Source: Trypanosoma brucei (lineage: Eukaryota). Taken from it: a stretch of 64,000 nt of DNA. The DNA is taken from contig CM000207.1 of NCBI GenBank assembly GCA_000002445.1, forward strand, positions 544,001 to 608,000. Direction: 5' to 3'. Shown here one piece after another: positions 2,893 to 64,000 of the stretch. The position numbers were made by a program, and so were the translations under genes. The first letter of the stretch is position 1; each line of letters starts with the position of its first letter. Below the pieces are notes generated by a model, which saw only the letters and a list, made by a program, of their open reading frames with translations, ran no database searches and was not told the origin of the DNA.

Positions 2893-5169
2893 AGCCGTTT
2901 CTTCGATAAAGGCATTCACGACTTCATTTTTTTTGTTGTGAATCGAAGTGTACCATTCTTTTCCTGCGAAATGTTTGGTGTGTTTTTTACTTTCTAATAT
3001 TAATTTGTTGTAATTTACTGGGTTTTTTTCGTTATAGAAGTTCCAAAGCCGTGGGTATTGGTGCTGAAGTATTTGGTGTTTTATTCTCTCCGGTGACTTT
3101 TTATTGTCGTATACGCTGTATTCGACTTGTAGATTGTGATCAGTTGCGTGCATGTTAGTGACAACGATTTTTTCGGTTTTCACTTCCAGTGCTGTTGATG
3201 TTTCGTGCAAAAATATGTCGTGTATTTTTTCTTTATCGTGGAGCATTTTGTATTTCCATTCTGTACCCATGAAGCTTCTCTTGTATTTAATTTTTTTGTA
3301 CGCGGTATATTTTTTGTAAATGGCGGTCGTTTGTGGGTATTCGTAGCTGTGTATGTTGTTGCCAGAATCATTGCTTTTCTTTATTCCCTTGCTCACAACA
3401 TATTCGACGTGAAGTCTGCTTGTTGCTAATATTTTTGTTACATATACATCGGCCGTACTGGCTAACCAGTGAAGATTGTAAATATCTGTTTCTGCTGCTT
3501 TTTTCACTTCATACTTGTGGTCATCAGCAATAGTTTTCCAGTCGTCACCTCTCAACGTGAAATTATGCAGTGACATATTTTTGCATTCTTCTTCATATAG
3601 TCTTCTGAGCAATGGGTAGTTGTATTCTGCGACTGCAGCCCTCAAGTCGTTTTGTGTCATAGAGTTGTCATGCTGTAATTCCGCCTGAATTATCAAGCAG
3701 TTTTGTTCCTCGTTGTAAGAAGAATGAGTGACTATTACATTACTTTTGGGCACACCCACCGCTGTTCCTGTCTCGACACAAAATGTGTGCTCAATGTCAG
3801 CTTGCCTAAAGTAGAGGATAACCTCCCAATCTTTCCCTGCGTATTCACGGCGCACCACACCGATAGTACCAGAAGGGATATTATCTACGGAGTGCGTTGT
3901 GGGTATAAATATCCCCTCGCTAATGTCCATCTCTTCTTGTTCTGATTTCCCCCGTCTACTGTTCGCTAACCGCTGCATCATAACGGTATCAAGATATCTA
4001 ATACAGGGTTCCTCGAGAGAGTACAGGTTATCCCCCCCTAGCAGTTCTTGTGAACCAAGTACCACGAGCACATTCTTTCGCAAAACGATGATGCTATAGT
4101 TTGTTGGCACCCACGTGTAGAAGGCAGGTAGCAGATATTCTTTGTTCTCCGCCCCGGCAAAACTCTGCCGGTACCTCTCTAGCGCTAAGTCTTTCGGGGC
4201 CGAGTGTTCTTCTGCCCTTGCGGGCTGCATCGAATCCCCCTCTTGCGTCTCCGTCTCTTCACCACCCCCAAATCCCATCTGCCTGTAAGCACGCAATTCC
4301 TCATTAACCTTGTCCAGTTGGGTTTGATACATCCCCATAGAGTACTGCTGCTTCTGAATGTCATTCATAACGTCAGCCAATACGCGCTTTTGTTCTTCCA
4401 TAATATCCTCTGCAGTAACCTTCTCCTTCACTGCATGGCATATGTCTAATTGAGCGAGCGTCCAGTAGTATATGGGTCCCATTGCCCTGCTGCCGTCTAC
4501 AGCCCGATCGTAGCAGAAGCTACGCCTACTCACGCAATCCCGCAAAATGAAATTACATCTCTCAATAGACAGTTCTTCGTCTGCAGAGAATTCTAGAATG
4601 CGCGCGCGAAAGTGCTGATGGCGTAACACACTCTGCATTTGTGGCCACGTTTTGGCTCCATCCTCACTCAGTAACAACATCACCGCGCGGAGGATAGTTG
4701 TTACCATCTTGGGTGGTGAACGATACGACTTCAGCTCATTCCAATGGTTGTACGAAATCGACTCAACATCGCAGCGGGCAGCAGACACTGCGGCGCGGGA
4801 CTGCATCAAGTGCGCCTCAGCTGCTGAACTAGTTCTCATCAATTCAGCTCGTGCGTTGCGAAGAGACTCGGTAAGCTCGGCCGCTCGCCGTAAGCACTGT
4901 TCAAACCCCTTCTTCGATTCTTCTACTTTACGCAGCATAGCGCCTCTCTCCCCAATGACGGTGGTGCCGCTGTTATCATCATCAACCAATTCCCACCTCC
5001 GCTCCCACAGCTGTATTTCAGCATCCTGGGCGTAAGGGGCTGACACTACCTGCCCCAGCGTCCAGTTGATTCCTCCACTATCGTCATTGGTCAGTACCAA
5101 CGCAACCACATCACCCGGTTTAATGGACCGAATGTCTGTACTGCACGTTAACGTTCTCTCTTGCATCAT
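1..5169 (-). CDS. Giant repetitive protein, partial; the C-terminus runs off the window start. The unique N-terminal region is followed by a series of ~100-aa FEGxDWDxVL-type domains, ending in a homogenised 200-aa tandem array.
   Basis: I translated the minus strand by hand from ATG ATG at 5169/5166 down to position 1 and found no stop codon. A stop lies 17 codons upstream of the ATG. Because the frame is open to the window edge it is absent from the ORF track. The 600-bp repeat unit translates as one in-frame 200-aa unit, TETVTQHHVEFEGEDWDYVLEKRKPDV...MMKDSSSA. Diverged copies of the same ~100-aa module occur between 2900 and 3900, for example GDDWKTIADDHKYEVKKAAETDIYNLHWL. Confidence 0.8.
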   Translation of the reverse strand, partial: MMQERTLTCSTDIRSIKPGDVVALVLTNDDSGGINWTLGQVVSAPYAQDAEIQLWERRWELVDDDNSGTTVIGERGAMLRKVEESKKGFEQCLRRAAELTESLRNARAELMRTSSAAEAHLMQSRAAVSAARCDVESISYNHWNELKSYRSPPKMVTTILRAVMLLLSEDGAKTWPQMQSVLRHQHFRARILEFSADEELSIERCNFILRDCVSRRSFCYDRAVDGSRAMGPIYYWTLAQLDICHAVKEKVTAEDIMEEQKRVLADVMNDIQKQQYSMGMYQTQLDKVNEELRAYRQMGFGGGEETETQEGDSMQPARAEEHSAPKDLALERYRQSFAGAENKEYLLPAFYTWVPTNYSIIVLRKNVLVVLGSQELLGGDNLYSLEEPCIRYLDTVMMQRLANSRRGKSEQEEMDISEGIFIPTTHSVDNIPSGTIGVVRREYAGKDWEVILYFRQADIEHTFCVETGTAVGVPKSNVIVTHSSYNEEQNCLIIQAELQHDNSMTQNDLRAAVAEYNYPLLRRLYEEECKNMSLHNFTLRGDDWKTIADDHKYEVKKAAETDIYNLHWLASTADVYVTKILATSRLHVEYVVSKGIKKSNDSGNNIHSYEYPQTTAIYKKYTAYKKIKYKRSFMGTEWKYKMLHDKEKIHDIFLHETSTALEVKTEKIVVTNMHATDHNLQVEYSVYDNKKSPERIKHQILQHQYPRLWNFYNEKNPVNYNKLILESKKHTKHFAGKEWYTSIHNKKNEVVNAFIEETAAQLQLNEEQVQDLVVSYSEGMLKLEFTITPPHNLKKDDIDERLNECPYTAVWMLYESRPRESSVLTEKFEGDDWDLVLSGDREGLENAFRNDAACALGVSPQQVVIIDCRLGSLLIDYKVIGCSLNDADILSTLAACPFSEVWSLYVPRASAARAAMMEDSSSATETVTQHHVEFEGEDWDYVLEKRKPDVVSAFTKETAAQLQLNEEQVQDLVVSYSEEMLKLEFTITLPHNLKKDDVDERLNECPYTAVWMLYESRPRESSVLTEKFEGDDWDLVLSGDREGLENAFRNDAARALGVSPQQVVIIDCRLGSLLIDYKVIGCSLNDADILSTLAACPFSEVWSLYVPRASAARAAMMEDSSSATETVTQHHVEFEGEDWDYVLEKRKPDVVSAFTKETAAQLQLNEEQVQDLVVSYSEEMLKLEFTITLPHNLKKDDVDERLNECPYTAVWMLYESRPRESSVLTEKFEGDDWDLVLSGDREGLENAFRNDAARVLGVSPQQVVIIDCRLGSLLIDYKVIGCSLNDADILSTLAACPFSEVWSLYVPRASAARAAMMKDSSSATETVTQHHVEFEGEDWDYVLEKRKPDVVSAFTKETAAQLQLNEEQVQDLVVSYSEEMLKLEFTITPPHNLKKDDIDERLNECPYTAVWMLYESRPRESSVLTEKFEGDDWDLVLSGDREGLENAFRNDAARVLGVSPQQVVIIDCRLGSLLIDYKVIGCSLNDADILSTLAACPFSEVWSLYVPRASAARAAMMKDSSSATETVTQHHVEFEGEDWDYVLEKRKPDVVSAFTKETAAQLQLNEEQVQDLVVSYSEEMLKLEFTITLPHNLKKDDIDERLNECPYTAVWMLYESRPRESSVLTEKFEGDDWDLVLSGDREGLENAFRNDAARVLGVSPQQVVIIDCRLGSLLIDYKVIGSSLNDADILSTLAACPFSEMWSLYVPRASAARAAMMKDSSSA

Positions 5170-6267
5170 GTGAAATGCCTTTACCGAAACTAAATCAATC
5201 TCAGGTTTCTGTTTTCACTGATTCACTTACTTACTTGTTTTTGGTGCCTTTTCTTATTGATCCTATCAACACCTGTGTACAAGTCCCTTTTGTCCGTTGC
5301 TGTTGTTGTTGTTTCGTCTTTTTTTCTTCCTTTTTTTTTCTCCAGTTCTACACCACTCCTTGGAACTTCGGAAACAGCAGAAGGTACTACTTCCTCCTGC
5401 TATGACCCCCAGATGCCGTACTGGACGTATGGTCTCTGTTTTTCTTTCTTTTCCCTTACCTTTTTCTTCGCAGCTGTGACTGTCCTTTAAGTAAGCTAAC
5501 TGTCAGATATATTAACAAACTTGTACAATTCTGTATATATATACACGTGCGTGTATGTGTGTTTATTTATTTGCTTTTGGTTGGGTAGGTGTGCTTGTTG
5601 TTGCCGTATTTTTAAACCTTTCCCGTTTGATTCACTTCCTGAAGACAAGTTGGTGCAGTAAGAAGCAGAAGTTCTTCCTTAACTTAACTTAAGCTCGTTT
5701 GCTCGCTTACCTTCCCTTGGTTTGCTTTTATGACCTTTTTTGGGGGGGCTTGATTCCCCCTTTTTTTTTTCTTTCTTCCCAACCCTCACTCTGTCTTGTC
5801 TCCTTTTTGTATTTTCTCTTGCTTTTTTTTCACGGAAACTCTCTCTCTCTCGTCTCCTTCGTTACGTTATGCACCCTCTAAACACGCTACAAAGGTATTG
5901 TGAACTGTACAACTGATATAAAGAGGCGCGCAATCAAATATATTTTTTTTTAATTTTTTTTTGATTTTTGCACCAGCCTTTGTGCTTACCTTTCGTGCCC
6001 GCGGCTCCCGCAAAACGTGCGCTCCGTTGATGGCGATGTTGTTGATATCGACTTTTTCGTAGCCGGTTTCCTTTAGTTTTTCCCGCTATTCGTGTCGTCG
6101 CCTAATCGCCTCAATTCCGTACTGTTTTGTTTCTTCCACACCTCTATTTTTAAATGATGATTCTTCTCTCAATTCGTATAAACGGACGGGAGGGCGGTAA
6201 TCCGAGGAAGGCAGCCTTTTGGTTCTCCTTCCCTTTTTTCCTTTTTCCTTCTTTTTTTTTTCTCTCT

Positions 6268-6281
6268 CGTGTGTATTGTAT

Positions 6282-6317
<36 letters not shown>
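6268..6317. repeat. (GT)n microsatellite: an imperfect lead-in, then about 16 perfect units.
   Basis: Read directly: gtgtgtattgtatgtgtatgtgtgtgtgtgtgtgtgtgtgtgtgtgtg. Confidence 0.95.
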
Positions 6318-21901: not shown

Positions 21902-21926
21902 TATATATATATATATATATATATAT

Positions 21927-21966
<40 letters not shown>
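21902..21966. repeat. Compound microsatellite: (TA)12, then (ATTT)10.
   Basis: Read directly: tatatatatatatatatatatatat followed by ttatttatttatttatttatttatttatttatttatttattta. Confidence 0.95.

Positions 21967-33884: not shown

Positions 33885-33913
<29 letters not shown>
33885..33913. repeat. (TA)n microsatellite of about 15 units, with an imperfect extension to ~33933.
   Basis: Read directly. Confidence 0.95.
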
Positions 33914-33916
<3 letters not shown>

Positions 33917-34648
33917 AATATATATATGAATATCACAATATCGGTACACTTCAGAGAACCCACGCAACACGAAGCAATGCACCCCCATTACCACCACCCC
34001 ACCCGCCTTCCTCAAGCAACAGTACAAACCGCACCCCTGGATTAAAAGGAGGAGGTTGTCGCCAGCTCCGCTGTGAGGAACATAAATCTGCTAAAGCATT
34101 TGGGTGCATACGATAGTTGAGTAGGGATGCGAAGCGCAAATGCGACATCTTAGCGATTCGGTTGGAAGGGGTCGTCAGCAGTTTGCGAAGGGGGGGAGAA
34201 GGAGTCTAACAAAAACGATAATAGTTCTCCCTTTTTGTTAATCAGTTCATTTGCTATACGCAGTTACGTGCCTCTTCCGTCTTTTTTTTCTTTCTTTTAT
34301 GTACAGCGTCCATATTTAATTCCCCTCTCCCAAGTTGAGTTTGGGGAGGCGTACCGTTACCTTTTGACAATTCTGACATCCCTGGTCTAGTGACTCGAGC
34401 GACCCACCAGTACTAACCCTCGCAACCGCAACCCTCTAATTTTAACGTGTTCATGTGCTGAGGCAAATCAATTGTCCTAGCACATACACGGCGCGCAGGC
34501 AACAACGTGAGGAGTAAGAGATGTTGCTCCAACCAAATACCTTCTTCAACAGCCTCGCGGCAACAACAACAACAATAGGAATGCACGATTTCCCCCTTTC
34601 CACAAATACGGAAAACGGGAGCTGAAGAAATAGAACGAAGTAGACACA

Positions 34649-41286: not shown

Positions 41287-41322
<36 letters not shown>
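41268..41322. repeat. Compound microsatellite: (CACT)5, then (TA)16.
   Basis: Read directly: ttcactcactcactcactca followed by tatatatatatatatatatatatatatatatata. Confidence 0.95.
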
Positions 41323-47218: not shown

Positions 47219-47250
<32 letters not shown>

Positions 47251-47271
47251 TTATATTTATTTATTTATTTA
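47219..47271. repeat. Compound (TA)n / (TATATT)n / (ATTT)n microsatellite.
   Basis: Read directly. Confidence 0.9.
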
Positions 47272-48345: not shown

Positions 48346-48862
48346 GCTAACCCCATTTTTTTTTGTCCTTTCACCACATAAAAGCAAACTCCAGATCAAA
48401 AAAAATTAAAAAACACGTATGTCTCTCTCTCCCTAGTTTCCCCTTGTTTTCCTCTCCTTTCCTTCCCTCTTTTGTTATTTCTATTTTTGGTCCCTCATAT
48501 TTAAAAAAAAAAACAGAGGATTCTTAACAAACCCATAGCGCATGTCTGCATTTGCCGTCGTTTGCCCGTGAGCAAACGTACACCAAGCACACGCATACAC
48601 ACACGCAAACATCTATTGTTGGCACTCTTCGTTCCGTTTTTTTGTTTTCCACCTTTCACTTCCCGATGTTATTATTGTTGCTTTTTGATTGCCCTCGTTT
48701 ACTGTTGTTTTTTTTTTGATATGGAGGTCTTCCTCATATATTCTAATGATATAATCGTAATAATGAATAAAAAGAAGGTCAGTTGAGCTAAAATCCCATT
48801 CACAAATCGTATGTGTGGTGGGCTGAAACGAGAGGGTGCAAGAAAAAAAAAGAAACGATCAC

Positions 48863-48888
48863 AAACACACACACACACACACACACAC
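48863..48888. repeat. (CA)13 microsatellite.
   Basis: Read directly: acacacacacacacacacacacacac. Confidence 0.95.
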
Positions 48889-51638: not shown

Positions 51639-52667
51639 CTAGCAGGGTGCCAATATACCGAGGCGCACAGTGGTACAATCCTCGGAGGGAACAAGCTCAC
51701 AGGGATGACGCCGGGCTACGTGTTTTAGCCAACGCTGCCGAGAGAGGAAGGTCGCCATGCAATCATCATACGGACATGTAAACGTAACGTTCTCTCCATA
51801 CGAGTGCAGACCAGCCTCCGCTGCCGAAATATTTAGCACTTCAGCCGAGTTAACATTCTGCTGGGCAGCAAAACTCTGAGCCACACCTGCACAGCGCCTT
51901 GAAACTATCAAGCGACTGCGCTTAGTTCTCTTGCGCAACGGGGACCCCTCGTCAGCGTCGCCACAAAGGTCAACAGAGAATACATCGTCATCGATACCAC
52001 AGTCGCCAAAAACATCATCGCGGAATGGACAATAGCACCTTAGATGCCGCTTCAACTGACGACGGTCGGCAAGTTCCTGTTCACAGTTTGGGCAAACGAA
52101 AAATGTATCAGCGGGACCAACGACAAACTCAGTGGGAGGAGGAGCACACGTGTTAACCCTAACTTGTGTGTTGTCTCGGTCGGACCAACTAAGTACACGA
52201 GGTGGGTTAGGCCTGGAAGAGCAGTGACGCTCATGCCTGGTCCGCTTCCCCTTACAGGAAAATCCAACGTTGCAAAAACGACAGTTTATTCCCTCATCAG
52301 AAGTGGTGGATGAAGCATTCGGTGCCCCTTCATTGCAATCTAAAGCTGCAGTTGACTGCCGAGGAGCGCTACCGGAAGATGCAGCCACCGGTGGCACTAC
52401 TACCTCAGGATGGAGGGTCCGAATATGTCTCTTCATGTTTGTGTTGGTTGTGAAGCCAACTAAGCACACATAGCACTTGTACGGCCTCTCCTTCGTATGA
52501 GTGAGGAGATGTCGGCGGAAATGCGTCCCACCGCTGCTGTCCGGGCTGCGCCTCGTGGTGTAACAGCAGTACGGACAGCGCATAATCAAGTTCCTGAGGC
52601 GCCGCCGCTTCCCAGAAACCGTCCGAGTGGGAACCTCCACTGCACCGCTGCAGCCTTCGTTATCCAT
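51639..52667 (-). CDS. Multi-C2H2 zinc-finger protein.
   Basis: It is a 342-aa ORF with an ATG start. At least five C-x2-C-x12-H-x3-5-H fingers are present, for example YKCYVCLVGFTTNTNMKRHIRTLH, FVCPNCEQELADRRQLKRHLRCYC and FTCPYDDCMATFLSRQRWLKHVARRH. Confidence 0.75.
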   Translation of the reverse strand: MDNEGCSGAVEVPTRTVSGKRRRLRNLIMRCPYCCYTTRRSPDSSGGTHFRRHLLTHTKERPYKCYVCLVGFTTNTNMKRHIRTLHPEVVVPPVAASSGSAPRQSTAALDCNEGAPNASSTTSDEGINCRFCNVGFSCKGKRTRHERHCSSRPNPPRVLSWSDRDNTQVRVNTCAPPPTEFVVGPADTFFVCPNCEQELADRRQLKRHLRCYCPFRDDVFGDCGIDDDVFSVDLCGDADEGSPLRKRTKRSRLIVSRRCAGVAQSFAAQQNVNSAEVLNISAAEAGLHSYGENVTFTCPYDDCMATFLSRQRWLKHVARRHPCELVPSEDCTTVRLGILAPC

Positions 52668-53892: not shown

Positions 53893-54706
53893 AAGAGCTG
53901 CGTTGGGGCAGACTTTACGAAGCCACTCATTAACGTCAAAACGAGAGCCTTCCCTGTAGCAACACAAAACAGCGCCGCTTTCACCAACAAAGAGAAAAAT
54001 ACAACGCTTCCACCATAAAAGGCGATAAACAAATACAGTACAACGAACAACATCACAAGAAAACACGCAGAAAACCATGATAAAGCAAAAAACCAAATAC
54101 AACAATTTATATGTACAATTAAACTAAAATATTGTGCTTATAAGCAAAACGCCTACTACAATTGACGGAAAAAAAAAGAAAAAAACCATAACAAATATAT
54201 AAAACAATAGAACACACAATACATAAGTAATACGGCTCAACACCCCATTCACACTTCATATGGAGTTTATGAACACCACTAATGATATATTCATGACAGT
54301 TAATAGTTGGAAATAGAAAATGCAATGGCATATGACTTACACTCAGTGCATTGATAATTCCAATAACTCTACATTTCATACGGCACCTCATACCACTCCT
54401 TCAAATGAATACAAACATCTCCCATGTTCGGGTTAAAATGTAACGCAATACGCTAAGGGGGATTACCTTCATTTGTGAAACTAATAATATCATCACACCA
54501 TCATATTACTGAAATGAAACTATTTTTTTGTACAAAACATCCTCAACGACAAAACGAATTATATAGTGCAACACTATTGTTAGTCAGCACACACATACAC
54601 AACACACAAGTAACAACATAAATATATTCCTTCCTTTTGTCTAACACACTAATAAGAAGAAAAATATGAGAAATAGTGAATTTGACAAGAGAACATGTAT
54701 ATATAC

Positions 54707-54727
54707 ATTTATTTATTTATTTATTCA
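54707..54727. repeat. (ATTT)n microsatellite.
   Basis: Read directly: catttatttatttatttattc. Confidence 0.85.
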
Positions 54728-55651
54728 TATACAGGTGATGAAGGGATTGACACAGTAACCCTCAGTATAATAACACAGCAACACGAAAGTAACATCGTAT
54801 CGCCATATTCCCTTACGATCAATATTAACAAAAACATATTATAAAACAAACACATGGAGGCCGTAACACCTGCCTGATTTATCCAAATACAACATATCAA
54901 CACATAATACGCTACGTCTGCACGATATATACATATACATATACTCGAACAAAGAAAAAATTGACACTTCACATAACTACTGATATGCGAATCATCACTT
55001 ACCGTCCGTACCATGTTACAGAAAAGAAAAAGGTTATTAATCAAAAAATAAAAAGAAAGGATATATAAAGTGATTACAAAGCTGACAATATAGAATATAT
55101 GCACAAGAAGGATCTACACACTTCACAATAATGCACAACATAAACACATACACAACGCATATAAGCATACAGCTAAGGGGGAAAAACATATAAGGATACA
55201 AACTCCATATAATTAGAGAAAGGTAGCAGAGAGAAAGCCTTAACACATAACTCAAGTATATTATATATGAAAGTTCAGCAGGTAAGTATTATTAATGAGA
55301 GAATAAGAAATGGAAGTGTATAGAGCAATACAAGGTAATATATATTCAAAATTAATGGAAATGAAACCAAATACTACTCATTAAGTGGTTCAACAATTTT
55401 CAAAATAAATAGTTGATTATTTCAAGAGAGTAACTGTAGTTGCTTCATGCAAACAGAAACATTTCACAAAGATTATAAAAACATTAAATACAAAAATATT
55501 ACGGTACAAAGGAAGGTACTTAAAGACATTGCGAAGAAATACAGTAGCAGAAAAAGACAATGTGACAATAGGGAAACATGACACACAACAGCACATCACT
55601 GCACACACCTCCATAAATTCTCATGCACATCATTAAACAAAAAGTATACAC

Positions 55652-56938
55652 TCACTCATCAGCTGCTGGAGTTTCCTGCTGATGGCTGGTAATGCTTAAA
55701 TGCTCCTCACCATTTGATGGTACCGCTGCCACTTCTGCTGCCTCCACATTAGATACGGGTGAGGTAACCTTTTCACGGAGAGACATTACAGTAATATACT
55801 TCTCATGACCTGCAAAACAGCAAAAGTATAAAAGAATAAGCAATACAGCAAGAAGAATAAATATTATAACAACAGCAGCACCGGCACCACCGCCACTTCC
55901 CTCACCATCGGAAGCTGTAGATGGCACAGTCTTATCTGATGCTTCATTACTTCCATTAGATATTTCATCAGCTATTGTATTTTCATCAGCTGTTGCATTT
56001 TCATCAGCTGTTGTATTTTCATCAGCTGTTGTATTTTCATCAGCTGTTGTATTTTCATCAGCTGTTGTATTTTCATCAACTGTTGTATTTTCATCAACTG
56101 TTGCATTTTCATCAACTGTTGTATTTTCATCAGCTGTTGTATTTTCATCAACTGTTGTATTTTCATCAACTGTTGTATTTTCATCAGCTGTTGTATTTTC
56201 GCTGTGAGGGGAAGCAGGTGGAAGCGGAGTTGGTACTGCAGAGGCTTCACAGAGAACCATGAAAAAGCGTGTACTTCTACCCCTAGTGTTCGTAAACATA
56301 GATATATTTCCAAAGTCGTCATCATCATCAAACCATGTGAAGCGACCAGAGGAATCCAGTTTAGCAATTACGTTTAATCTCCCGTACGCAGGATAATTTT
56401 CGAAAAAGGATGGGTAGTCATTCATACTACCAGCTCCTGTTACTTCATAGTAAGACCCACGCCAGAATGCAACACCATTATCGTCAGGAGTTGCCGGAGC
56501 AAACAATCCTGTGTTCCATCGATAGACACAATTTAATGATGAAGCGAGGTCACCTACTTTGCATCTGTCCTTTTCCTCATGTACTGAACTCGCACTGTAC
56601 TTGGCATCACCACCAAGGTAAGCATATAAATACCCCAATTCATTTTTCGGTTTTAATAGTTTATATATTAAACTGTTTGTGGCCTCAGAGTGGTCAGTAG
56701 CGAGGTTCATACCTTCAGCACGGCACACACGCTCAGAATTAACGTAATCCACATTATATACACCATTATTTTTAAACACTTCATGAGGATATATGGCGTA
56801 ACTCTTAGCTGCTGTAGTCACGGGACCCCCTCCAGAGCTGGCAGCCTGCAGTGGACGTAAAATACATTGCAATAACATCAGTATACCACACAGAGTTGTA
56901 ATCCGAGAGAAGTTTGATGGCACCATGCGGATTTCCAT
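55652..56938 (-). CDS. Type I membrane glycoprotein: signal peptide, C-type-lectin-like ectodomain, acidic ENTT[A/V]D hexapeptide repeat stalk, one TM helix and a short cytoplasmic tail.
   Basis: It is a 428-aa ORF with an ATG start. The N-terminal signal-like segment is LCGILMLLQCILRPLQAAS. CTLD-like landmarks are ERVCRAEGMNLATDHSEATNSLIYKLL, YLYAYLGG, CVYRWNTG, FWRG and the terminal RFFMVLCE (compare the ..FICE end of CTLDs). About 13 hexapeptide units span residues ~247-325. The TM helix is AAVVIIFILLAVLLILLYFCCFAG. Confidence 0.75.
   Translation of the reverse strand: MEIRMVPSNFSRITTLCGILMLLQCILRPLQAASSGGGPVTTAAKSYAIYPHEVFKNNGVYNVDYVNSERVCRAEGMNLATDHSEATNSLIYKLLKPKNELGYLYAYLGGDAKYSASSVHEEKDRCKVGDLASSLNCVYRWNTGLFAPATPDDNGVAFWRGSYYEVTGAGSMNDYPSFFENYPAYGRLNVIAKLDSSGRFTWFDDDDDFGNISMFTNTRGRSTRFFMVLCEASAVPTPLPPASPHSENTTADENTTVDENTTVDENTTADENTTVDENATVDENTTVDENTTADENTTADENTTADENTTADENATADENTIADEISNGSNEASDKTVPSTASDGEGSGGGAGAAVVIIFILLAVLLILLYFCCFAGHEKYITVMSLREKVTSPVSNVEAAEVAAVPSNGEEHLSITSHQQETPAADE
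55963..56200. repeat. 18-bp coding minisatellite, about 13 units (tttcatcagctgttgtat on the plus strand), with A/G and T/C variants.
   Basis: It is a direct perfect to near-perfect 18-nt periodicity inside the CDS 55652..56938. It encodes ENTTAD/ENTTVD/ENATVD/ENTIAD units. Confidence 0.9.
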
Positions 56939-58943
56939 GTTTACTGTTAAACTTGCTTGCTTATGAGTCTGTAGTTAATGTTGGGAAATCAAACAGATAT
57001 GAAAGGGTTAGTTAAAGGGGAAAGTCAAGGGACCGGGAAGTGAAGAAAGTAGTAATGGTTGTACAATCATAAAAGTGGTGCGCACACACATTGCGAAAAC
57101 TCAACATGAAAATAGTTCATCACTCATATTAGAAACTAGTAATTGGGAAGCAAATAACTGTCGTGGTGATAAATAAACTATCATTAAAAATACATGTTGC
57201 AGGTTGTGAGTAGTAAATTAAATAATGTGTGTTTGTGGGAATTGGCCTTCTTGCCAGGACGATAGAATACCACTCTTTCAGGCGAAGTTTGCAAGTACTG
57301 ACTGTGACGGTTGTCATTCTTTTATCCTATTTTTTTTCCTGCTGCAAATGTTGGTGTTTTTTTTTTCGCAGAGGGGGCATGATTGCTGGTAAATGGATCA
57401 AGTGGTGAGCGGGGCAACCTGTTTTAACGTTGCATTCTATGACATCTTGGTTGTAGTGCATTACTGTCTTTGTGTGTAGGCGTCCCTTGTCAATGTGTAA
57501 CCGAAAATAGTGTAATTTCATCGATATGGCACATGTAAGAAAGCGGTGTGTGCAAAACATCTGCGACGAAGATTCTGTACCAGTTCATTCCTCTGTTTTG
57601 TTTATATAGCGTCTTGTACGGCAGAGGTTAAAAGTGATACGGAGAGTCATGTACATGTGGCAGCATACGTACATTAGAGGCTATACTCCCGTCCTTTAGA
57701 ACCTTGCCAATAAGGTGCTCACTGCGCAAGTCGCTATACAACGGCTCATGATAATCGTGTCGCCGTGTTAAACCTTTCTGAGATTTACCGGCTTTTTATT
57801 TCTTAAGCCGCGAGCGGCTCCGTGTCAGTCCGCCTCTATCCAACATGTATACAAATACATGAATGAAAGATCGACCCCCCTTCCAATACCGCGCCGCCCC
57901 ACAACCTTTGGTGGAAGGAAGCGGGAAAGAAACGATTGGAATGTGTGGCGCTAAACGCACTAAAGACACCCGGGAAGGAACTTACCCTGCACTCCCCCTC
58001 ATTTACACCATGCGAAAGGGGGATAAAAAAGGACTGAGTAGTTTCTCGGGCAGCCAACAGTGTTGGAAAATTTATGAACACCAGCAGTCACTTATGGCGA
58101 GCCGCTGCTGCCGCCACAACTTCCACGGTGCAGAAGTTGCATTATTCGTATTCATCTGTCCTTAACAAAACATACTTCACTTCCACTTCCTTTCATCAAA
58201 AAAATGACAATGACAGAAAGGAAGGAAAGAAATGGCTACCGCTGCCTTTGCGGGATAGAGAGACGTTCGAAGCGCTGCACAGAGAGCACCTCTGAACCTT
58301 ATCACGAGGGTACAAAAAATGGATATTATTCATGCATCAAAGAGGGGCTCCTCACCAACACTCCCGGTCCTGATGGTTTATTTTTCAACTTAGAACTTAA
58401 ACGCTTAACGAGAACCTTAAAATTAAAAAATTTAAAAACTGTAGAGAAAAATAAAGAAGGGATACCAAGACCAAAACCTTTGTCCCTCACCCATGCGTCA
58501 CTCCCGCAGGTAAACAACGCAAAGTTTGAGCAGGCCTCACTCTGAAATGCCACCAACACCACATCTGTCAAGAGGGGGAAAAGGTAGCAGTAGAAGTAAA
58601 AAAGTGGGACCATCTAAAGGAATGGAAAAAAACAACTACATTAATGCCCCCGTTCACCCATTTGGGCCCAGTACACCTGTTATCTCCCATTGTATCCTTC
58701 CGCTGCAAATGTTTCCACGTCCAACTGCCACCGCGACGCACGCCCAATTTCGCGATGTGCGTGCGCTCCCCCACTTATCCACAAGCGAGACGCTCGCCGT
58801 CATTTCCCCAACTGATCTGTAATACCATTTAAAAAAAATTGGAAATGAAAGATAGTAACCAGCTCTTGACTTAGAGAGCTACCTCACCGAGATGTCATCA
58901 TGTACATGTACTCCAAGGCACACCCTTCCCATTGCAGCGGGTA

Positions 58944-61900
58944 TCAGGAACCCATCGCATACAGGACATCTTGGCCCGTAATGGATGAAAGATGTCCACA
59001 CAACCTCCGCGCCTGCTCCACAACGACGTCGTCGCGGTCCTCTGTAAGCTCCGCAACGGAAGGAAGCATTTCAGCCATGAGCCGCGCAGCCAATTCACCT
59101 CCACCGTCCTCGTAAATGCGATCAAGACACAACAGCGCCACACGCCGTACATGACGACTCGGGTGACGAAGCGAACGCAGCACTTCACGCTGAGTGTCGC
59201 TCTGCTGCTTGGAAGATGTCAATGAGAGGAACAGCGCACGGACAGCAGGGATGACACATTGCTCCGCGCGAAAGGCGTAGTCATGTGTGCTGTCGGCAAG
59301 GTACACGAGATTTGTGAGTTGCCGAACGACTGCAGGCATTACGGCGCTGAACACCTCGTGTGTTGCAAGGTAATTGTCCACCGGAATGCTATGATCATGG
59401 TGCGGTGGTGCTGTTTGGGCGGAAGCTATGATCCTGATGCTGTTGAGCGCACCTTCAAGCGTACGCGCTATGAGATCTGCCGCATGGCGCGCAGCATGTG
59501 TTGTAGATGAGCAGTAGCTCGCAAGGGTACCGACGATGTACGGCAGAAGAACAGGAAACGCAAAATCCATGATGGATCCCAACCTCTCCAGCAAATGGTT
59601 GCACAATGCATAGAAGAGAAGCCAACGATGCACAATCACACGGGGAACGGACGCTACGTCGTCCCTCTCCCGCACGTCCTCAGATTCTTTGCCTGCCGAC
59701 TCCTTTGCCTGCTGTTTCTCAGTCGATTTGACGAAGCCCTCCGCAGCTCCACCAAAGGCCCACTCAGCCATTGTGGATATGAAAGATGTACAGTGTTTGG
59801 CCTTAAACTTTAAAAAGAACATCGTGTATGCCTCGAGAACTGGCTGAACGGCATCTGGTGATGGAAGCGTCGGTGCACTGGCTAGCGTCTGCATCGATGA
59901 GAGCCAAAAGTTGTCACGAGCTGTGGTTCCTCCCACGAAGAGACTCAAATGTTTTAACTCCTCGCGGCCAAGGCTCGTCACCCGCCGTTGTATACTGGAG
60001 TAAAGCAGTGCTAGAGAGTGGGTGTCAACCCGCACGCGCAGAACCCTTTTTGATCGCTTCCCCGATTCATCTGCGGCCACCTCCTGTTCGACAATCCCCC
60101 GCACGCACTCGGCGGATGCCTCAATAAACAACTGCGGCTCAAGGGCAACCTCCAACATAGACATCACCTCCACACTAAGATAGTTAGTCTCCGTGTCATC
60201 GACGTTTTGCAAGTGTGTCGCGACGTAAATGATGCGGGAAAGGTATGGCTGACACATGAGCCAGGACGACGGAAAGGTACGAAGTAAGCAATTGAGAGAT
60301 GACTGACGAAGCACGGACCCCACTTCACCCCGTGAAACGGTAGGTGGGACACCCGCTGCTGCAAAAACGGCAGCATCCACTACGACTTGCAGTGTGACGT
60401 TACTATGCGGCACGGTGAAAGCAGTACCCATCACCTGGCTCACTGTGCCGAGCGCCGTCAAAAGAGCAGCTGCGGCAAACAGACAATCCTCCTTGGAGCC
60501 GTGCGTATGCTCTTCATCCTGATTACGACACGACCGAATAACACGGGGTAGTACAGAAACCATGCTGTCCACCCAACGATGAACTTCCTCCACGCGGGAA
60601 TGGTTGCCAAACAGTTTGTTAAGTCTGTCTTCCGTTACCCGAGCAGTACGGTTTACGTTTAGTAGAGCCGCCTCTGCGTGTTGACTACCACCACTAGCTA
60701 TAATACGAACAAGTTCCTCCATACATGCAACGCTGAGTGTCAGTAACCTCAAATTGTCTACCCTCTCGGCTTTTCCAACCTGCACCCCCGCCGCCGACAT
60801 CATCAACGCGAAAATATGAGAGAAGAGGGTGAAGGACCGCTTCGTCGCAAATGGTCTTGCCTTAAGGCGAACAACGTCTGTAAGGGTTAATCTGCTCTTG
60901 GGATCGCGTAGCTTCTGGCGCCCCCGTTCCACCTCCTCCTTCGTGAGGATCTGCTCAACAGTTGGCAAAGCGTTGTGCAAGCGGTCCAGCAGCATTTCCA
61001 GTCCCTTCAACTGCACCGCCGCACGGTGGTCTGTAAGAAGGTTCTTCATGCACAAAACAAATGTAGGTTCATTAATACCGGCAAGTACACAAGCCAGCGT
61101 GTTGCCAGCGAGGAGTTCCAACAGCATCACAAACGCCTTTTTTTCCCCGTACGCCGGGGCGCCCACAAACCCACCATCGGAATGTTGACTGGCAGCAGCG
61201 GTGCCGGCATCGTTTTCTGTGGCTGTGTTGAGCTCCGTGTAGTATGCAAACAGTTTGAGAGAGGCAACAAGGAGTGCCATGCACTCGTTGCTTTTGTCGA
61301 TTCCCTCAAACAAGGAGCTCTCCCCATATTTGGTCCCACTGGTATCGTCCCTTTGTACACCACCATCAGCATGTGCTGTGTCCAAACAAAGCACCGCGGT
61401 GCTGTGCTGGAGCGCCACAAACCCGGCGAGGAACTCCTCTGATTTAATCGTGTCGTTGATGAGGTACATAATCTCCTCCTGTCGATTTACCACTTGATTG
61501 GGTTTCAATAGCTTCCGAAACAGCCGCTTCATAGTGTAATCATCATCATTTTCAGAACACCCGACGTCACCTGTGTCCATACCTTCGACCTTTCCTCTCC
61601 GATTACCACCAACCTTTGGCGACGATAGGGAAAGTTGTTTGTGCGGATCAACAAGCAGCTCCATCATACCCGTGAGACAAAGCAGCTGTGTTTGCACATC
61701 AAAACTAACTAAGAGATGGCGGCATACCTCCATGGCACTGGTGTAGTTGTGTTTTCCAGACTCGAAGTTTACCGACTCCAGACGGATGAGAAGGGCGACG
61801 ACCGGTATATGCAGCGCAACCCTTCCACCAACAGAAAAATCATTGGAATGCATTGGTGTAACAGCGGGGGTAAAAAGCGGCGAAACGATCCTTAGCAACT

Positions 61901-64000
61901 CTGTGACGGTACCGATGGTGCGGCCAGAAAAAACGGAATTGGGGCGTGCAGCTTCAGATGCCGAAGCCGGCTTCTGTGCTCCGCTTGACGACGGTAAATC
62001 CGGAGTAAATAAGCCAGCCATGAGGATTACACTCTGCCTCACAACTTCTTGGCGTATAACCGCTGCGCCATCTGGCTGACCATCGTTTAATGCCCCTGGT
62101 GACGAAAGACACAGATTCACAAGGCAACGAATAAATGACAAAGCAAGGCGATACAACGAGTTCCCAGAGGCACCAACATCAGCACTATCGTTGTCTTCGA
62201 GAAGTGGAAGCAGGGATGCCAGCGGGAACGAATTCAGAACCTCTCTAACCAAATTAAATAATGATGAATCCCCCAAGTCCTCTCCTCCTTCCCCCTCTCT
62301 TTTGCCCACATCGTCCCCATCGAACCTGATCAAGTGCGATGATTCAAAAATAGCACACAGAATGCGCAGTGCTGGTAAGGTGTTGCCTTCTCGTCTCCAC
62401 ACAATTTCTTCCCCGCCATCGGCCCGACTCAACGACTTCGCACAAAGCTGAAGAATAGACTCAACATCTGTGGACTTCAGCGGGTCATAAAGAGTACACC
62501 ACGATGGTGGCTCCCATGCGTCCACCGTATCCCCTCCCTCTCCTTCCGACCCCGGTAATGGCGAGGAAGGTGACGCAGCTGCAACTGCCTCGAGCGCATC
62601 CGCAATAATTGACAAGTCCGGACTCCGCTGTTTCAGTTTCTGTGACACAAGTGGTAAAAATAGGCGTTGGTAGCCGCCAACAGTACCGACCAACAGTGAA
62701 AGTGCATCAGCACCCATCCGACTTAGGCAAACAGCGTCGTCCAGTACCACCTCCGAAACCACACTAGCCACCCTTTTGGCGTAATCCTCGTCGTCGCTTT
62801 TTTCCAATAAATTATTCGTGCCCTGTGAAGTATTTCGCGTTGGCTTTGGTACAAAGACAAGTGGGTTTGCAGAAGATACATCACACCCCCGACTCAACAC
62901 CGAAGCAAAGGTACTGAGGGCGTGGCGATACACTAAGCGGGTACGGCGACCACTGACTCGAAGAAACGGGTGGCGAACAAGGGCAAGGTTCAGCTGCAGT
63001 AAGGCATTCTTTTCTTCGTTGCTGATGGTTGCCATTTCTGCGCAAATCTGTGCGCGATTGCAGATGGCTTGCACAAAGTTTGCTGCTTCTGGGCTCACCG
63101 TCCCCTCTCCACCGTCGCCGCCCGCTTCTAGAAGTGATATTAAAAGCGGCAGGAGAGCGTTAACCACGATGCCACTTTTCCGGGCGCGCAGTGGATAGAA
63201 GTGCTCCACCACAAGGTTCAGAAAGGAAAAGGGCGCTGTTGTTTCTTCATTTCCACCGTTTCCAACTCCGTCAACTATCATGCGGCACAGAAGCTCGGAG
63301 GCGGTGTGCGTCAGGTGTGCGTGAGAATCCTCCAGAGCTATTGCCTCAACGAGGGCATTCAGTGTTGTGATGGAAATGGATCCCTGACGCAACGCAGCCT
63401 CCAAAAATAGCTGTGCGCTGCTCATGTTAGTTATCGTTAGTCTCTTCTTTGCGTCTCTGGTACTCCTCTTAACATCGTCCGCAGCAGAAAGTATGAGCCC
63501 CTGCAACGTTGTCAATACATCCTCCCGGCGACCAGCCGGCGCGGCTAGGGGTGAGGTCACAGCCACAAATAACCCTGACAGAGAGAAGTAACTTCCACAG
63601 TTCGATTTCAGAGTGACAGGGGACTCGAACACGGAGCGGTAGACGAGACGGAACCAGTCCACGGGTAGCTGTACATTCCAGTCATCGCCCGCAACGTCGC
63701 TAGCGGTGTTACACAACTCCAGCATATGCAGGTAAGCGGGTGGAAGCCACATGGGACTGACTGCCGCAGCCGGGAGGGGGGCATCCAAATAACCCAGCAA
63801 ACGCCCCATGTACGCCAGCGTATTGGTTGAATTGAACGCCATCTTCTCGCCCTCAACGCAACTACCGACCTCAGAGTTTCTAGCCAAACGCGTTTCCATG
63901 CTGATGCGAATAGTGGCACCCATTATCCTGGTAAACAGATTTTTCGGCAAAAATGGCGACGACCCGTCGTTTGCAGCTCCTCGTCCAACACGTCCTCTCA
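58944..64000 (-). CDS. UTP10: HEATR1/UTP10-like giant HEAT-repeat protein (SSU processome), 5'-partial; the N-terminus lies beyond the window end.
   Basis: The minus-strand frame is open from 58944 to the window end. The ORF-track start at 63950 is a TTG, and the frame continues upstream without a stop. The C-terminal block RWLLFYALCNHLLERLGSIMDFAFPVLLPY parallels human HEATR1 RLLTFYNLADCIAEKLKGLFTLFAGHLVKPF. The extreme C-terminus LPSVAELTEDRDDVVVEQARRLCGHLSSITGQDVLYAMGS parallels IPFLAELMEDECEEVEHQCQKTIQQLETVLGEPLQSYF (BP28 C-terminal domain). Confidence 0.75.
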   Translation of the reverse strand, partial: RGRVGRGAANDGSSPFLPKNLFTRIMGATIRISMETRLARNSEVGSCVEGEKMAFNSTNTLAYMGRLLGYLDAPLPAAAVSPMWLPPAYLHMLELCNTASDVAGDDWNVQLPVDWFRLVYRSVFESPVTLKSNCGSYFSLSGLFVAVTSPLAAPAGRREDVLTTLQGLILSAADDVKRSTRDAKKRLTITNMSSAQLFLEAALRQGSISITTLNALVEAIALEDSHAHLTHTASELLCRMIVDGVGNGGNEETTAPFSFLNLVVEHFYPLRARKSGIVVNALLPLLISLLEAGGDGGEGTVSPEAANFVQAICNRAQICAEMATISNEEKNALLQLNLALVRHPFLRVSGRRTRLVYRHALSTFASVLSRGCDVSSANPLVFVPKPTRNTSQGTNNLLEKSDDEDYAKRVASVVSEVVLDDAVCLSRMGADALSLLVGTVGGYQRLFLPLVSQKLKQRSPDLSIIADALEAVAAASPSSPLPGSEGEGGDTVDAWEPPSWCTLYDPLKSTDVESILQLCAKSLSRADGGEEIVWRREGNTLPALRILCAIFESSHLIRFDGDDVGKREGEGGEDLGDSSLFNLVREVLNSFPLASLLPLLEDNDSADVGASGNSLYRLALSFIRCLVNLCLSSPGALNDGQPDGAAVIRQEVVRQSVILMAGLFTPDLPSSSGAQKPASASEAARPNSVFSGRTIGTVTELLRIVSPLFTPAVTPMHSNDFSVGGRVALHIPVVALLIRLESVNFESGKHNYTSAMEVCRHLLVSFDVQTQLLCLTGMMELLVDPHKQLSLSSPKVGGNRRGKVEGMDTGDVGCSENDDDYTMKRLFRKLLKPNQVVNRQEEIMYLINDTIKSEEFLAGFVALQHSTAVLCLDTAHADGGVQRDDTSGTKYGESSLFEGIDKSNECMALLVASLKLFAYYTELNTATENDAGTAAASQHSDGGFVGAPAYGEKKAFVMLLELLAGNTLACVLAGINEPTFVLCMKNLLTDHRAAVQLKGLEMLLDRLHNALPTVEQILTKEEVERGRQKLRDPKSRLTLTDVVRLKARPFATKRSFTLFSHIFALMMSAAGVQVGKAERVDNLRLLTLSVACMEELVRIIASGGSQHAEAALLNVNRTARVTEDRLNKLFGNHSRVEEVHRWVDSMVSVLPRVIRSCRNQDEEHTHGSKEDCLFAAAALLTALGTVSQVMGTAFTVPHSNVTLQVVVDAAVFAAAGVPPTVSRGEVGSVLRQSSLNCLLRTFPSSWLMCQPYLSRIIYVATHLQNVDDTETNYLSVEVMSMLEVALEPQLFIEASAECVRGIVEQEVAADESGKRSKRVLRVRVDTHSLALLYSSIQRRVTSLGREELKHLSLFVGGTTARDNFWLSSMQTLASAPTLPSPDAVQPVLEAYTMFFLKFKAKHCTSFISTMAEWAFGGAAEGFVKSTEKQQAKESAGKESEDVRERDDVASVPRVIVHRWLLFYALCNHLLERLGSIMDFAFPVLLPYIVGTLASYCSSTTHAARHAADLIARTLEGALNSIRIIASAQTAPPHHDHSIPVDNYLATHEVFSAVMPAVVRQLTNLVYLADSTHDYAFRAEQCVIPAVRALFLSLTSSKQQSDTQREVLRSLRHPSRHVRRVALLCLDRIYEDGGGELAARLMAEMLPSVAELTEDRDDVVVEQARRLCGHLSSITGQDVLYAMGS

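What the first reader, a model, noticed from the sequence alone, without database searches (positions are those of the whole stretch)
55652..56938. C-type-lectin-like type I membrane protein with an acidic N-glycosylation-sequon minisatellite stalk
The ectodomain carries CTLD landmarks (Cys after the signal peptide, a WIGL-like YLYAYLGG, and a terminal ..RFFMVLCE). It is followed by about 13 copies of ENTT[A/V]D, encoded by a perfect 18-bp minisatellite (55963-56200), then a TM helix. Most units carry an N-T-T sequon, which would give a densely N-glycosylated, strongly acidic stalk. The architecture resembles metazoan lectin receptors held off the membrane on a mucin-like stalk. The minisatellite makes the stalk length prone to copy-number variation between alleles and strains.
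Basis: partly seen in the sequence, partly recalled or inferred. Interest (0 to 1): 0.6.

Follow-up and report, generated by a model that had tools for sequence, protein, structure and literature searches.

The report
Known trypanosome ER glycoprotein IGP48

Summary
ORF 55652-56938 (-) encodes 428 aa: a signal-peptide-like N-terminus, a lectin-like domain, 13 hexapeptide units ENTT[A/V]D from an 18-bp tandem repeat (95% matches, not perfect), one TM helix and a 52-aa tail.

The gene belongs to the IGP48 subfamily (Allison et al. 2014, PMC4497807). Its C-terminal 104 aa equal the published Tb09.v4.0147, and the repeat starts at the same residue, 247. That paper showed IGP48 is N-glycosylated in the repeat region, forms homo-oligomers, is retained in the ER through its lumenal domain and cannot be biotinylated at the surface.

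Copy number does vary: 13 units here, 15 in Tb09.v4.0147, and 15, 12, 7 and 11 in four tandem T. b. gambiense copies.

Lectin activity is unproven, because the EPN/QPD calcium-sugar motif is absent.

Verdict: already known, low interest. The surface-receptor analogy does not hold.

The parts
55652..56938 (-). IGP48 gene, complete ORF of 428 aa including the stop codon
   Evidence: ORF list. Pfam PF16825. 94% identical outside a 36-aa gap to the T. b. gambiense DAL972 protein P0001. C-terminal 104 aa identical to the published Tb09.v4.0147.
56843..56938 (-). Predicted signal peptide, aa 1 to about 32 (h-region ITTLCGILMLLQCIL, then RPLQA/AS)
   Evidence: Hydropathy mean 2.47 over 11 residues. 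The family was originally recovered by a SignalP plus TMHMM screen (PMC4497807). The cleavage site itself is inferred.
56246..56758 (-). IGP-type C-type-lectin-like domain, aa 61-231
56201..56245 (-). Pro-rich linker ASAVPTPLPPASPHS, aa 232-246
   Evidence: Read directly from the translation. pLDDT below 50 in the model.
55967..56200 (-). 13 hexapeptide units ENTT[A/V]D, aa 247-324, encoded by an 18-bp tandem repeat; 12 N-glycosylation sequons; net charge about -26
   Evidence: TRF reports 55963-56200 with score 420. Unit table. Corresponds to the 'TRIM domain' of IGP48, which starts at residue 247 (PMC4497807).
55886..55966 (-). Degenerate unit EISNGS (one more sequon) and a Ser/Gly-rich juxtamembrane spacer, aa 325-351
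   Evidence: Translation and sequon list.
55811..55885 (-). Transmembrane helix, about aa 352-376 (AGAAVVIIFILLAVLLILLYFCCFA)
   Evidence: Kyte-Doolittle 19-residue mean up to 3.39; the only such segment in the protein.
55655..55810 (-). Cytoplasmic tail of 52 aa, acidic, ending in -TPAADE, with no KKxx/KDEL-type motif
   Evidence: Translation. The paper shows the TM and tail carry no essential ER-retention signal.
56969..57052 (-). Pyrimidine-rich tract followed by AG dinucleotides (first AG at 56969-56970), 31 nt or more upstream of the ATG; candidate trans-splice acceptor
   Evidence: Read from the sequence. The function is inferred from the general organisation of kinetoplastid genes and was not tested.
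54228..57162 (-). One unit of the tandem IGP48 gene array: the ORF plus about 0.2 kb upstream and about 1.4 kb of AT-rich downstream sequence
   Evidence: This stretch matches unit-length stretches at the copies in the T. b. gambiense locus L001 at 94-96% identity; the copy-3 unit matches in two pieces. Only one copy is present in the window (tblastn).

Best explanation
This is a member of the IGP48 subfamily of trypanosomatid 'invariant glycoproteins', in a Trypanosoma brucei-group chromosome 9 housekeeping gene cluster. It is a type I membrane protein. Its lumenal part consists of a divergent C-type-lectin-like domain followed by an acidic array of hexapeptides, nearly every one of which carries an N-glycosylation sequon.

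Shown here: domain family, fold, layout, repeat structure, synteny and copy-number variation.

Taken from published experiments on the near-identical paralogue Tb09.v4.0147:
- the repeat region is N-glycosylated;
- the protein forms homo-oligomers of about 200 and 450 kDa;
- it stays in the ER because of its lumenal domain (either the lectin-like domain or the repeat region is sufficient);
- it is not on the surface;
- it rises in stumpy forms;
- knockdown slows growth and disturbs ER morphology.

Inferred: the repeat acts as a heavily glycosylated, negatively charged spacer and self-association module. It holds the lectin-like domain away from the ER membrane within an oligomer. The sequon context DE-N-T-T-x-DE makes it a preferred substrate of the oligosaccharyltransferase TbSTT3A. 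The biochemical ligand of the lectin-like domain is unknown.
For: - Family: Pfam PF16825 'IGP family C-type lectin domain', E=7.7e-76, full profile length. All 26 aligned relatives hit the same family.
- Identity with the published IGP48: the repeat starts at residue 247, the C-terminal 104 aa are identical, and 236 of 246 N-terminal residues match a machine-read copy of Tb09.v4.0147.
- Synteny: same order as the T. b. gambiense DAL972 record FN554972.1 (methyltransferase-like, C2H2 zinc-finger and EB1-like genes downstream). The neighbouring zinc-finger protein is identical to T. b. brucei TREU927 XP_803588.1. All long ORFs lie on one strand.
- Experiments: PMC4497807.
- TbSTT3A preference for acidic residues around the sequon, strongest at -1 and +1: PMC5724017. 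Sequon contexts are listed.
Against: - The exact 428-aa sequence is not in the protein collection, so nothing has been measured on this very copy. Location and glycosylation are carried over from a paralogue with 15 rather than 13 units.
- Localisation in the paper used ectopically expressed, C-terminally HA-tagged protein.
- The structural model is only moderately confident (mean pLDDT 58.6). The 74-residue long-loop region, which would hold any ligand site, is below 50.
- The published Endo H shift (about 10 of 15 kDa sensitive) suggests many sites carry oligomannose glycans. That fits a pure TbSTT3A prediction poorly.
Confidence: 0.88

Rival explanations
1. It is a cell-surface lectin receptor, displayed on a glycosylated stalk like metazoan CTLD receptors and exposed to the host.
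For: The layout of signal peptide, CTLD, repeat, TM and short tail is that of such receptors. Sera from T. b. rhodesiense patients recognise IGP48.
Against: IGP48-HA co-localises with BiP. It is recovered entirely in the non-biotinylated fraction and gives no staining on non-permeabilised cells, also after stumpy-like induction. The authors attribute the antibody response to release from dying stumpy cells.
Confidence: 0.04
2. The hexapeptide array is not a flexible stalk. It is a folded left-handed beta-helix (LpxA-type hexapeptide repeat) that trimerises the protein, as the 'TRIM domain' label of the 2014 paper implies.
For: The period is exactly six residues, with V or A at a fixed position followed by D, which resembles the [LIV]-[GAED]-x-x-[STAV]-x hexapeptide pattern (my own knowledge of that family). 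The only PDB sequence hits of the repeat alone are three left-handed beta-helix proteins: LpxD E=0.072, a gamma-carbonic-anhydrase-like subunit 0.16 and eIF2B-epsilon 0.72. Pfam LbH_EIF2B scores E=0.038. The repeat region alone keeps the protein in the ER.
Against: All hits are far below significance (14.4 bits against a cut-off of 54). PF00132 itself was not reported. Only 5 of 13 units have Val; the other 8 have Ala at that position. One third of the residues are acidic with no basic partner, so stacked rungs would repel each other. T. b. gambiense units GNTNAD and ENTNTD weaken the pattern further. A glycan every six residues is hard to fit on a compact helix. The unit number (7-15) is not kept to multiples of three.
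Confidence: 0.15
3. It works as an ERGIC-53-like cargo receptor that cycles between ER and Golgi and escorts a subset of glycoproteins (the 2014 authors' proposal), rather than as a static ER matrix component.
For: It has a lectin-fold domain, stalk, TM and oligomer architecture. There is a minor Golgi signal and some Endo H-resistant glycans. Knockdown causes no bulk glycosylation defect, as with ERGIC-53.
Against: It is not a family member: no L-type lectin domain, and the tail ends in -TPAADE without a di-lysine or FF signal. No cargo is known. In T. brucei Endo H-resistant glycans arise at transfer, because TbSTT3A adds Man5GlcNAc2 to acidic sequons. The sequons here are flanked by D/E at -2, -1, +4 and +5. 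Endo H resistance is therefore not evidence of Golgi passage (my inference). The EPN/QPD sugar-binding motif is missing.
Confidence: 0.25

Closest known systems
IGP48 subfamily of T. brucei invariant glycoproteins (representative Tb09.v4.0147; Allison, O'Reilly, Sternberg & Field 2014, Microb Cell, PMC4497807)
   Same: Same domain family (PF16825). Same layout, with the repeat starting at residue 247 and the same hexapeptide. TM and tail are identical (104 of 104 aa), and about 96% of the N-terminal 246 aa match.
   Different: 13 units instead of 15. There are up to ten substitutions in the lectin-like domain, at least one of which (residue 110) is a text-recognition error in the stored supplement. 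This exact sequence is not in the protein collection.
T. b. gambiense DAL972 IGP48 tandem array (FN554972.1; proteins of 440, 422, 392 and 416 aa)
   Same: Orthologous locus with the same downstream neighbours. 94-95% identity outside the repeat.
   Different: Four copies with 15, 12, 7 and 11 units against one copy with 13 here. The gambiense units include GNTNAD, GDTNAD and ENTNTD, which lack a sequon. An extra upstream 994-aa relative carries 24-aa repeats.
IGP34 (Tb927.6.380) and IGP40 subfamilies, and IGPs of T. congolense and T. vivax
   Same: Same PF16825 domain with four conserved Cys, [YF]-[LM]-G-G-D, C-V-Y-R-W-N, Y-P and W-x-D motifs; type I layout.
   Different: 35-44% identity in the domain. 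They have no ENTT[A/V]D array. T. vivax members carry Thr/Ser-rich stretches instead.
Metazoan C-type lectin-like domains (mannose receptor CRD-4, tetranectin, collectins SP-A/SP-D/CL-K1)
   Different: 10-20% identity. No significant PF00059 hit. The domain is about 170 rather than about 125 residues, with a much longer loop region. The second Cys pair lies in that loop. No EPN/QPD motif, and W-x-D in place of WND. The protein is ER-resident.
ERGIC-53 / LMAN1 cargo receptor
   Same: Lectin domain, stalk, TM, oligomer, early secretory pathway: the functional analogy proposed by the 2014 authors.
   Different: It is an L-type (legume-like) lectin fold, not a CTLD (my own knowledge). There is no sequence relationship and no C-terminal KKFF-type motif here.

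Membership tests
IGP family (Pfam PF16825 / DUF5075) | Match to the PF16825 profile above its gathering score | tested here: met
   254 bits against a cut-off of 22.6, E=7.7e-76, profile positions 1-173 of 173.
IGP family (Pfam PF16825 / DUF5075) | Type I layout: N-terminal signal sequence, one TM helix near the C-terminus, at least one N-glycosylation sequon | tested here: met
   Hydropathy and sequon counts. No dedicated signal-peptide or TM predictor was available, so this rests on hydropathy.
IGP family (Pfam PF16825 / DUF5075) | Found in trypanosomatids, in a housekeeping (non-telomeric) gene cluster | tested here: met
   The neighbour protein is identical to T. b. brucei TREU927 XP_803588.1. 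There is synteny with T. b. gambiense. The one-strand gene cluster holds ordinary genes. An exhaustive search found only 25 related representatives among 1.84 billion proteins.
IGP48 subfamily | Array of DENTTV-type hexapeptides starting at residue 247, rich in sequons | tested here: met
   13 units at aa 247-324 with 12 sequons. The paper gives residues 247-336.
IGP48 subfamily | 85-100% identity to other subfamily members | tested here: met
   236 of 246 N-terminal and 104 of 104 C-terminal residues match Tb09.v4.0147. 94-95% identity to the four gambiense copies outside the repeat.
IGP48 subfamily | N-glycosylated, ER-localised, homo-oligomeric | not testable with these tools
   Shown experimentally for tagged Tb09.v4.0147 only.
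C-type lectin-like domain (CTLD) fold | Double-loop alpha/beta fold: strand 1, helix 1, helix 2, strand 2, long loop, strands 3-5 | tested here: met
C-type lectin-like domain (CTLD) fold | Cys in helix 1 paired with Cys in the last strand (C1-C4) | tested here: inconclusive
   Cys72 lies in predicted helix 1 and Cys230 in the last predicted strand. Both are conserved in 22 of 26 relatives. The disulfide itself could not be measured.
C-type lectin-like domain (CTLD) fold | Second canonical Cys pair (C2 in strand 3, C3 after strand 4) | tested here: not met
   There is no Cys between residues 138 and 229, which span predicted strands 3 and 4. The conserved pair Cys126/Cys137 lies in the long-loop region instead.
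C-type lectin-like domain (CTLD) fold | Sequence match to Pfam PF00059 Lectin_C | tested here: not met
   No hit for this protein even at E<=10. Only 2 of 26 relatives hit, at E about 0.1. The paper reported a weak 1.24e-4.
Calcium-dependent carbohydrate-binding C-type lectins | EPN or QPD motif in the long loop plus WND in strand 4 (calcium site 2) | tested here: not met
   No EPN, QPD or WND in this protein. At the aligned position the family conserves Y-P (22 and 25 of 26) without flanking E/N, and W-x-D (24 of 26) with Y/F/R in the middle.
Calcium-dependent carbohydrate-binding C-type lectins | Demonstrated sugar binding | not testable with these tools
   Knockdown gave no lectin-detectable change in N-glycans. 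No binding assay has been reported.
ERGIC-53-type cargo receptors | L-type lectin domain and a C-terminal di-lysine/di-phenylalanine transport signal | tested here: not met
   No such Pfam domain, and the tail ends in TPAADE. This rules out membership, not the functional analogy.
Hexapeptide-repeat left-handed beta-helix (PF00132 and relatives) | Significant profile match and an aliphatic residue at the same position of every hexapeptide | tested here: not met
   The best match is PF25084 at 14.4 bits against a cut-off of 54, and PF00132 was not reported. PDB sequence hits have E of 0.07-0.7. Val occupies the position in 5 of 13 units and Ala in 8.

The most novel reading that the evidence does not exclude
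The acidic hexapeptide array is a genuine left-handed beta-helix that trimerises IGP48, with an N-glycan on almost every rung. The 7-15-unit variation among tandem paralogues then sets helix length within mixed oligomers. This would be an N-glycosylated hexapeptide-repeat helix in a eukaryotic ER protein, a combination I know of nowhere else. A more likely but less striking reading: the array is a dedicated TbSTT3A substrate. Its Endo H-resistant glycans would then arise in the ER, which removes the evidence for Golgi cycling.
Probability: 0.12. Interest if true: 0.4.

Novelty: already known. Interest (0 to 1): 0.1.

Why it matters
It matters little as a discovery. The family, its lectin-like domain, the sequon-rich hexapeptide repeat, its glycosylation and its ER location were published in 2014, and the domain has its own Pfam entry.

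Three points remain useful:
- An independent structure-based check confirms that the IGP domain really has the CTLD fold. The original claim rested on a weak sequence match.
- The family lacks the canonical calcium/sugar motif, so 'lectin' should be read as a fold label.
- The repeat number differs in every copy examined, and the array is probably collapsed in this assembly. This matters for anyone using IGP48 as an antigen or mapping reads to it.

Tried and rejected
- The full-length protein search was swamped by the low-complexity repeat. Apart from the gambiense orthologue it returned only unrelated proteins (P0002-P0004) matching 19-29% of the query, which I discarded.
- The domain-only search and the profile search gave just five further relatives. 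The exhaustive representative search added about twenty.
- The first structure prediction, with 7 sequences, was too poor to use (pLDDT 48.2). The second, with 26 sequences, was usable in the core.
- The AlphaFold-database fold library was not available.
- I looked for further IGP copies in the window by tblastn and found none.
- Exact look-ups of this protein found nothing.
- ORFs on the other strand and in other frames across the repeat (55975-56262 +, 55972-56367 -) are by-products of the 18-bp periodicity, so I rejected them as genes.
- I rejected a mucin-type O-glycosylated stalk. The units contain no Pro or Ser, and the published shift is sensitive to tunicamycin and PNGase F. About 10 kDa of the published mass excess remains unexplained.
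- The paper's wording 'heptad repeats' is wrong: the period is six residues.

Full report
**What is in the sequence**

Tandem Repeats Finder reports an 18-bp array at 55963-56200 with 13.2 copies, 95% matches, no indels and score 420. No other repeat in the 64-kb window comes close.

Read in the coding frame, the array gives 13 hexapeptides at residues 247-324: ENTTAD x6, ENTTVD x4, ENATVD, ENATAD and ENTIAD. A degenerate EISNGS follows. Twelve of the 13 units keep an N-x-T sequon. The stretch has 26 acidic residues, no basic ones, and is 78 aa long.

The repeat is not perfect. There are five DNA variants of the unit and eight mismatches to the consensus.

A single strongly hydrophobic segment lies at about residues 352-376 (19-residue Kyte-Doolittle mean up to 3.39). 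A 52-residue acidic tail follows it. The N-terminus has a 15-residue hydrophobic core and then RPLQA/AS. ORFs on the opposite strand and in other frames across the repeat are periodicity artefacts.

**Genomic setting**

All long ORFs in the window lie on the minus strand. That is the layout of a kinetoplastid polycistronic unit.

The neighbouring C2H2 zinc-finger protein (51639-52667) is identical to T. b. brucei TREU927 XP_803588.1 / EAN76378.1 and to a second Trypanozoon entry. The downstream neighbours are a methylguanine-methyltransferase-like gene, the zinc-finger gene and an EB1-like gene. They appear in the same order in T. b. gambiense DAL972 record FN554972.1.

A pyrimidine-rich tract followed by AG dinucleotides lies just upstream of the ATG. 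This is what a trans-splice acceptor looks like. I infer that function and did not test it.

**What the protein is**

Residues 61-231 match Pfam PF16825, 'IGP family C-type lectin domain', over the whole profile at E=7.7e-76. The family is small: an exhaustive HMMER pass over 1.84 billion representatives found 25 relatives. All 26 sequences I aligned hit PF16825.

The paper that defined the family (Allison et al. 2014, PMC4497807) divides the T. brucei members into IGP34, IGP40 and IGP48. It describes IGP48 as having 'multiple DENTTV repeats' at residues 247-336, each with a sequon. The window protein has the same repeat starting at the same residue.

The window protein's C-terminal 104 residues are identical to the published Tb09.v4.0147. 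In the N-terminal 246 residues, 236 match a machine-read copy of that sequence, and at least one of the ten differences (residue 110) is a text-recognition error. It is therefore an IGP48 gene.

Table S2 of the paper lists eight IGP48 genes in TREU927. One is on assembled chromosome 9 (Tb09.160.1520) and seven are on unassembled Tb09.v4 contigs.

**Is the lectin-like assignment real?**

The original claim rested on a weak PF00059 match of 1.24e-4. I could not reproduce it. This protein gives no PF00059 hit at E<=10, and only 2 of 26 relatives hit, at E about 0.1.

A family profile searched against PDB sequences gave marginal but concordant hits. SP-A (E=0.012), conglutinin, tetranectin, CLEC4A4 and CD93 all fall on the same N-terminal stretch.

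Structure settles it:
- An AlphaFold2 model from 7 sequences was unusable (pLDDT 48.2).
- With 26 sequences the model reached pTM 0.62, with the core at pLDDT 70-84 and the 74-residue long loop below 50.
- Foldseek agreed, with SP-A at E=6.8e-4.

The domain is not a canonical sugar-binding C-type lectin, however:
- EPN, QPD and WND are absent from this protein.
- The family conserves Y-P and W-x-D at the corresponding places.
- The second conserved Cys pair (126/137) sits in the long loop rather than around strands 3-4.

'Lectin' is thus a fold label. Knockdown produced no lectin-detectable glycan defect.

**How it most likely works**

The published experiments were done on ectopically expressed, HA-tagged Tb09.v4.0147. 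They show the following.
- The protein runs about 25 kDa above its predicted size.
- It shifts by about 15 kDa with tunicamycin or PNGase F and by about 10 kDa with Endo H.
- It loses tomato-lectin binding when the repeat region is removed.
- It co-localises with BiP, with a minor Golgi signal.
- It forms complexes of about 200 and 450 kDa and co-precipitates with itself.
- ER retention maps to the lumenal part. Either the lectin-like domain or the repeat region suffices, and the TM and tail carry no essential signal.
- Knockdown slows growth and disturbs ER morphology, expression rises in stumpy forms, and patient sera recognise the protein.

My reading is that the window gene encodes an ER-resident, self-associating glycoprotein. 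Its repeat is a negatively charged, glycan-covered spacer and association module. The ligand of the lectin-like domain is unknown.

One added inference concerns the glycans. In T. brucei, TbSTT3A co-translationally adds Endo H-resistant Man5GlcNAc2 to sequons containing or flanked by acidic residues, with positions -1 and +1 counting most (PMC5724017). Every repeat sequon here has D at -2, E at -1, D at +4 and E at +5. The Endo H-resistant fraction of IGP48 therefore need not indicate cycling through the Golgi, which weakens one argument for the ERGIC-53 analogy. The published ratio (about two thirds of the shift is Endo H-sensitive) does not fit a pure TbSTT3A prediction, so this remains to be measured.

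**Is the repeat a folded beta-helix?**

The paper calls the repeat a trimerisation domain because of similarity to LpxA-type hexapeptide repeats.

Searching the repeat alone against PDB sequences gave only three hits, all left-handed beta-helix proteins, at E=0.07-0.7. Pfam gives LbH_EIF2B at 14.4 bits against a cut-off of 54. This reflects the shared six-residue period more than homology.

Several features argue against a compact helix:
- Val occupies the would-be core position in only 5 of 13 units.
- One residue in three is acidic, with no counter-charge.
- The gambiense units diverge to GNTNAD and ENTNTD.
- Unit numbers are not multiples of three.

I give the helix about 15%.

**Copy-number variation**

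The counts are 13 units here and 15 in Tb09.v4.0147. The four tandem copies in T. b. gambiense (440, 422, 392 and 416 aa) have 15, 12, 7 and 11 units, and their flanks are 94-95% identical to the window's. Sequons per array range from 4 to 14.

The window holds one array unit (about 54228-57162) where gambiense has four. The paper places seven of the eight TREU927 copies on unassembled contigs. The single copy here is therefore probably an assembly collapse, which also means cross-strain differences should be confirmed by long reads.

**Verdict**

The feature is an already described and experimentally studied gene family with its own Pfam entry. The implied surface-receptor role does not hold, and sugar binding is unproven. 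Interest is low.

Noticed in passing
L001 3-890 (T. b. gambiense FN554972.1, upstream of the IGP48 array): A 994-aa gene, cut by the locus end, finishes with five ENTTAD/ENTTVD units plus one ENTNTD, then a TM and tail almost identical to IGP48. Upstream of these it carries a different 24-aa acidic, sequon-rich repeat (GNTSDDKNTTxHENRSYDDSSVAD). The window has no counterpart: its upstream gene, 58944-63998 (-), is an unrelated large protein.
   Followed up: partly
window 54228-57162, compared with L001: The window has one IGP48 array unit where T. b. gambiense has four. The 2014 paper lists seven of the eight TREU927 IGP48 genes on unassembled contigs. The array is probably collapsed in this assembly.
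   Followed up: partly
window 55417-55614 (-) and 54721-55104 (-): Short Cys/Phe/Ile-rich ORFs of 65 and 127 aa lie in the AT-rich (33% GC) region downstream of IGP48. Equivalents of 65 and 96 aa are called as genes within the array units (the 65-aa ORF after two copies) in the T. b. gambiense record. They look like spurious calls in untranslated sequence.
   Followed up: no
window 1-5214 (-): An open frame of at least 1738 aa runs off the left end of the window. It holds 12 copies of the Pfam FAZ1_cons domain (E=7e-255). The repeats are too diverged for Tandem Repeats Finder to report.
   Followed up: no
window 55967-56200 (-): The repeat sequons sit in the context DE-N-T-T-x-DE, the preferred acceptor of the T. 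brucei oligosaccharyltransferase TbSTT3A. That enzyme transfers a glycan which is Endo H-resistant from the start. The published inference that IGP48 cycles through the Golgi may therefore not be needed.
   Followed up: partly
window 6269-6316, 21904-21965, 33885-33941, 41290-41322, 47220-47271, 48860-48888: Ordinary intergenic microsatellites, (GT)n, (TATT)n, (TA)n and (CA)n, lie between the genes of the cluster.
   Followed up: no
PMC4497807, Discussion: The paper calls the VDENTT units 'heptad repeats', but the period is six residues. It also describes ERGIC-53 as having a C-type lectin domain, whereas to my knowledge it is an L-type lectin.
   Followed up: no
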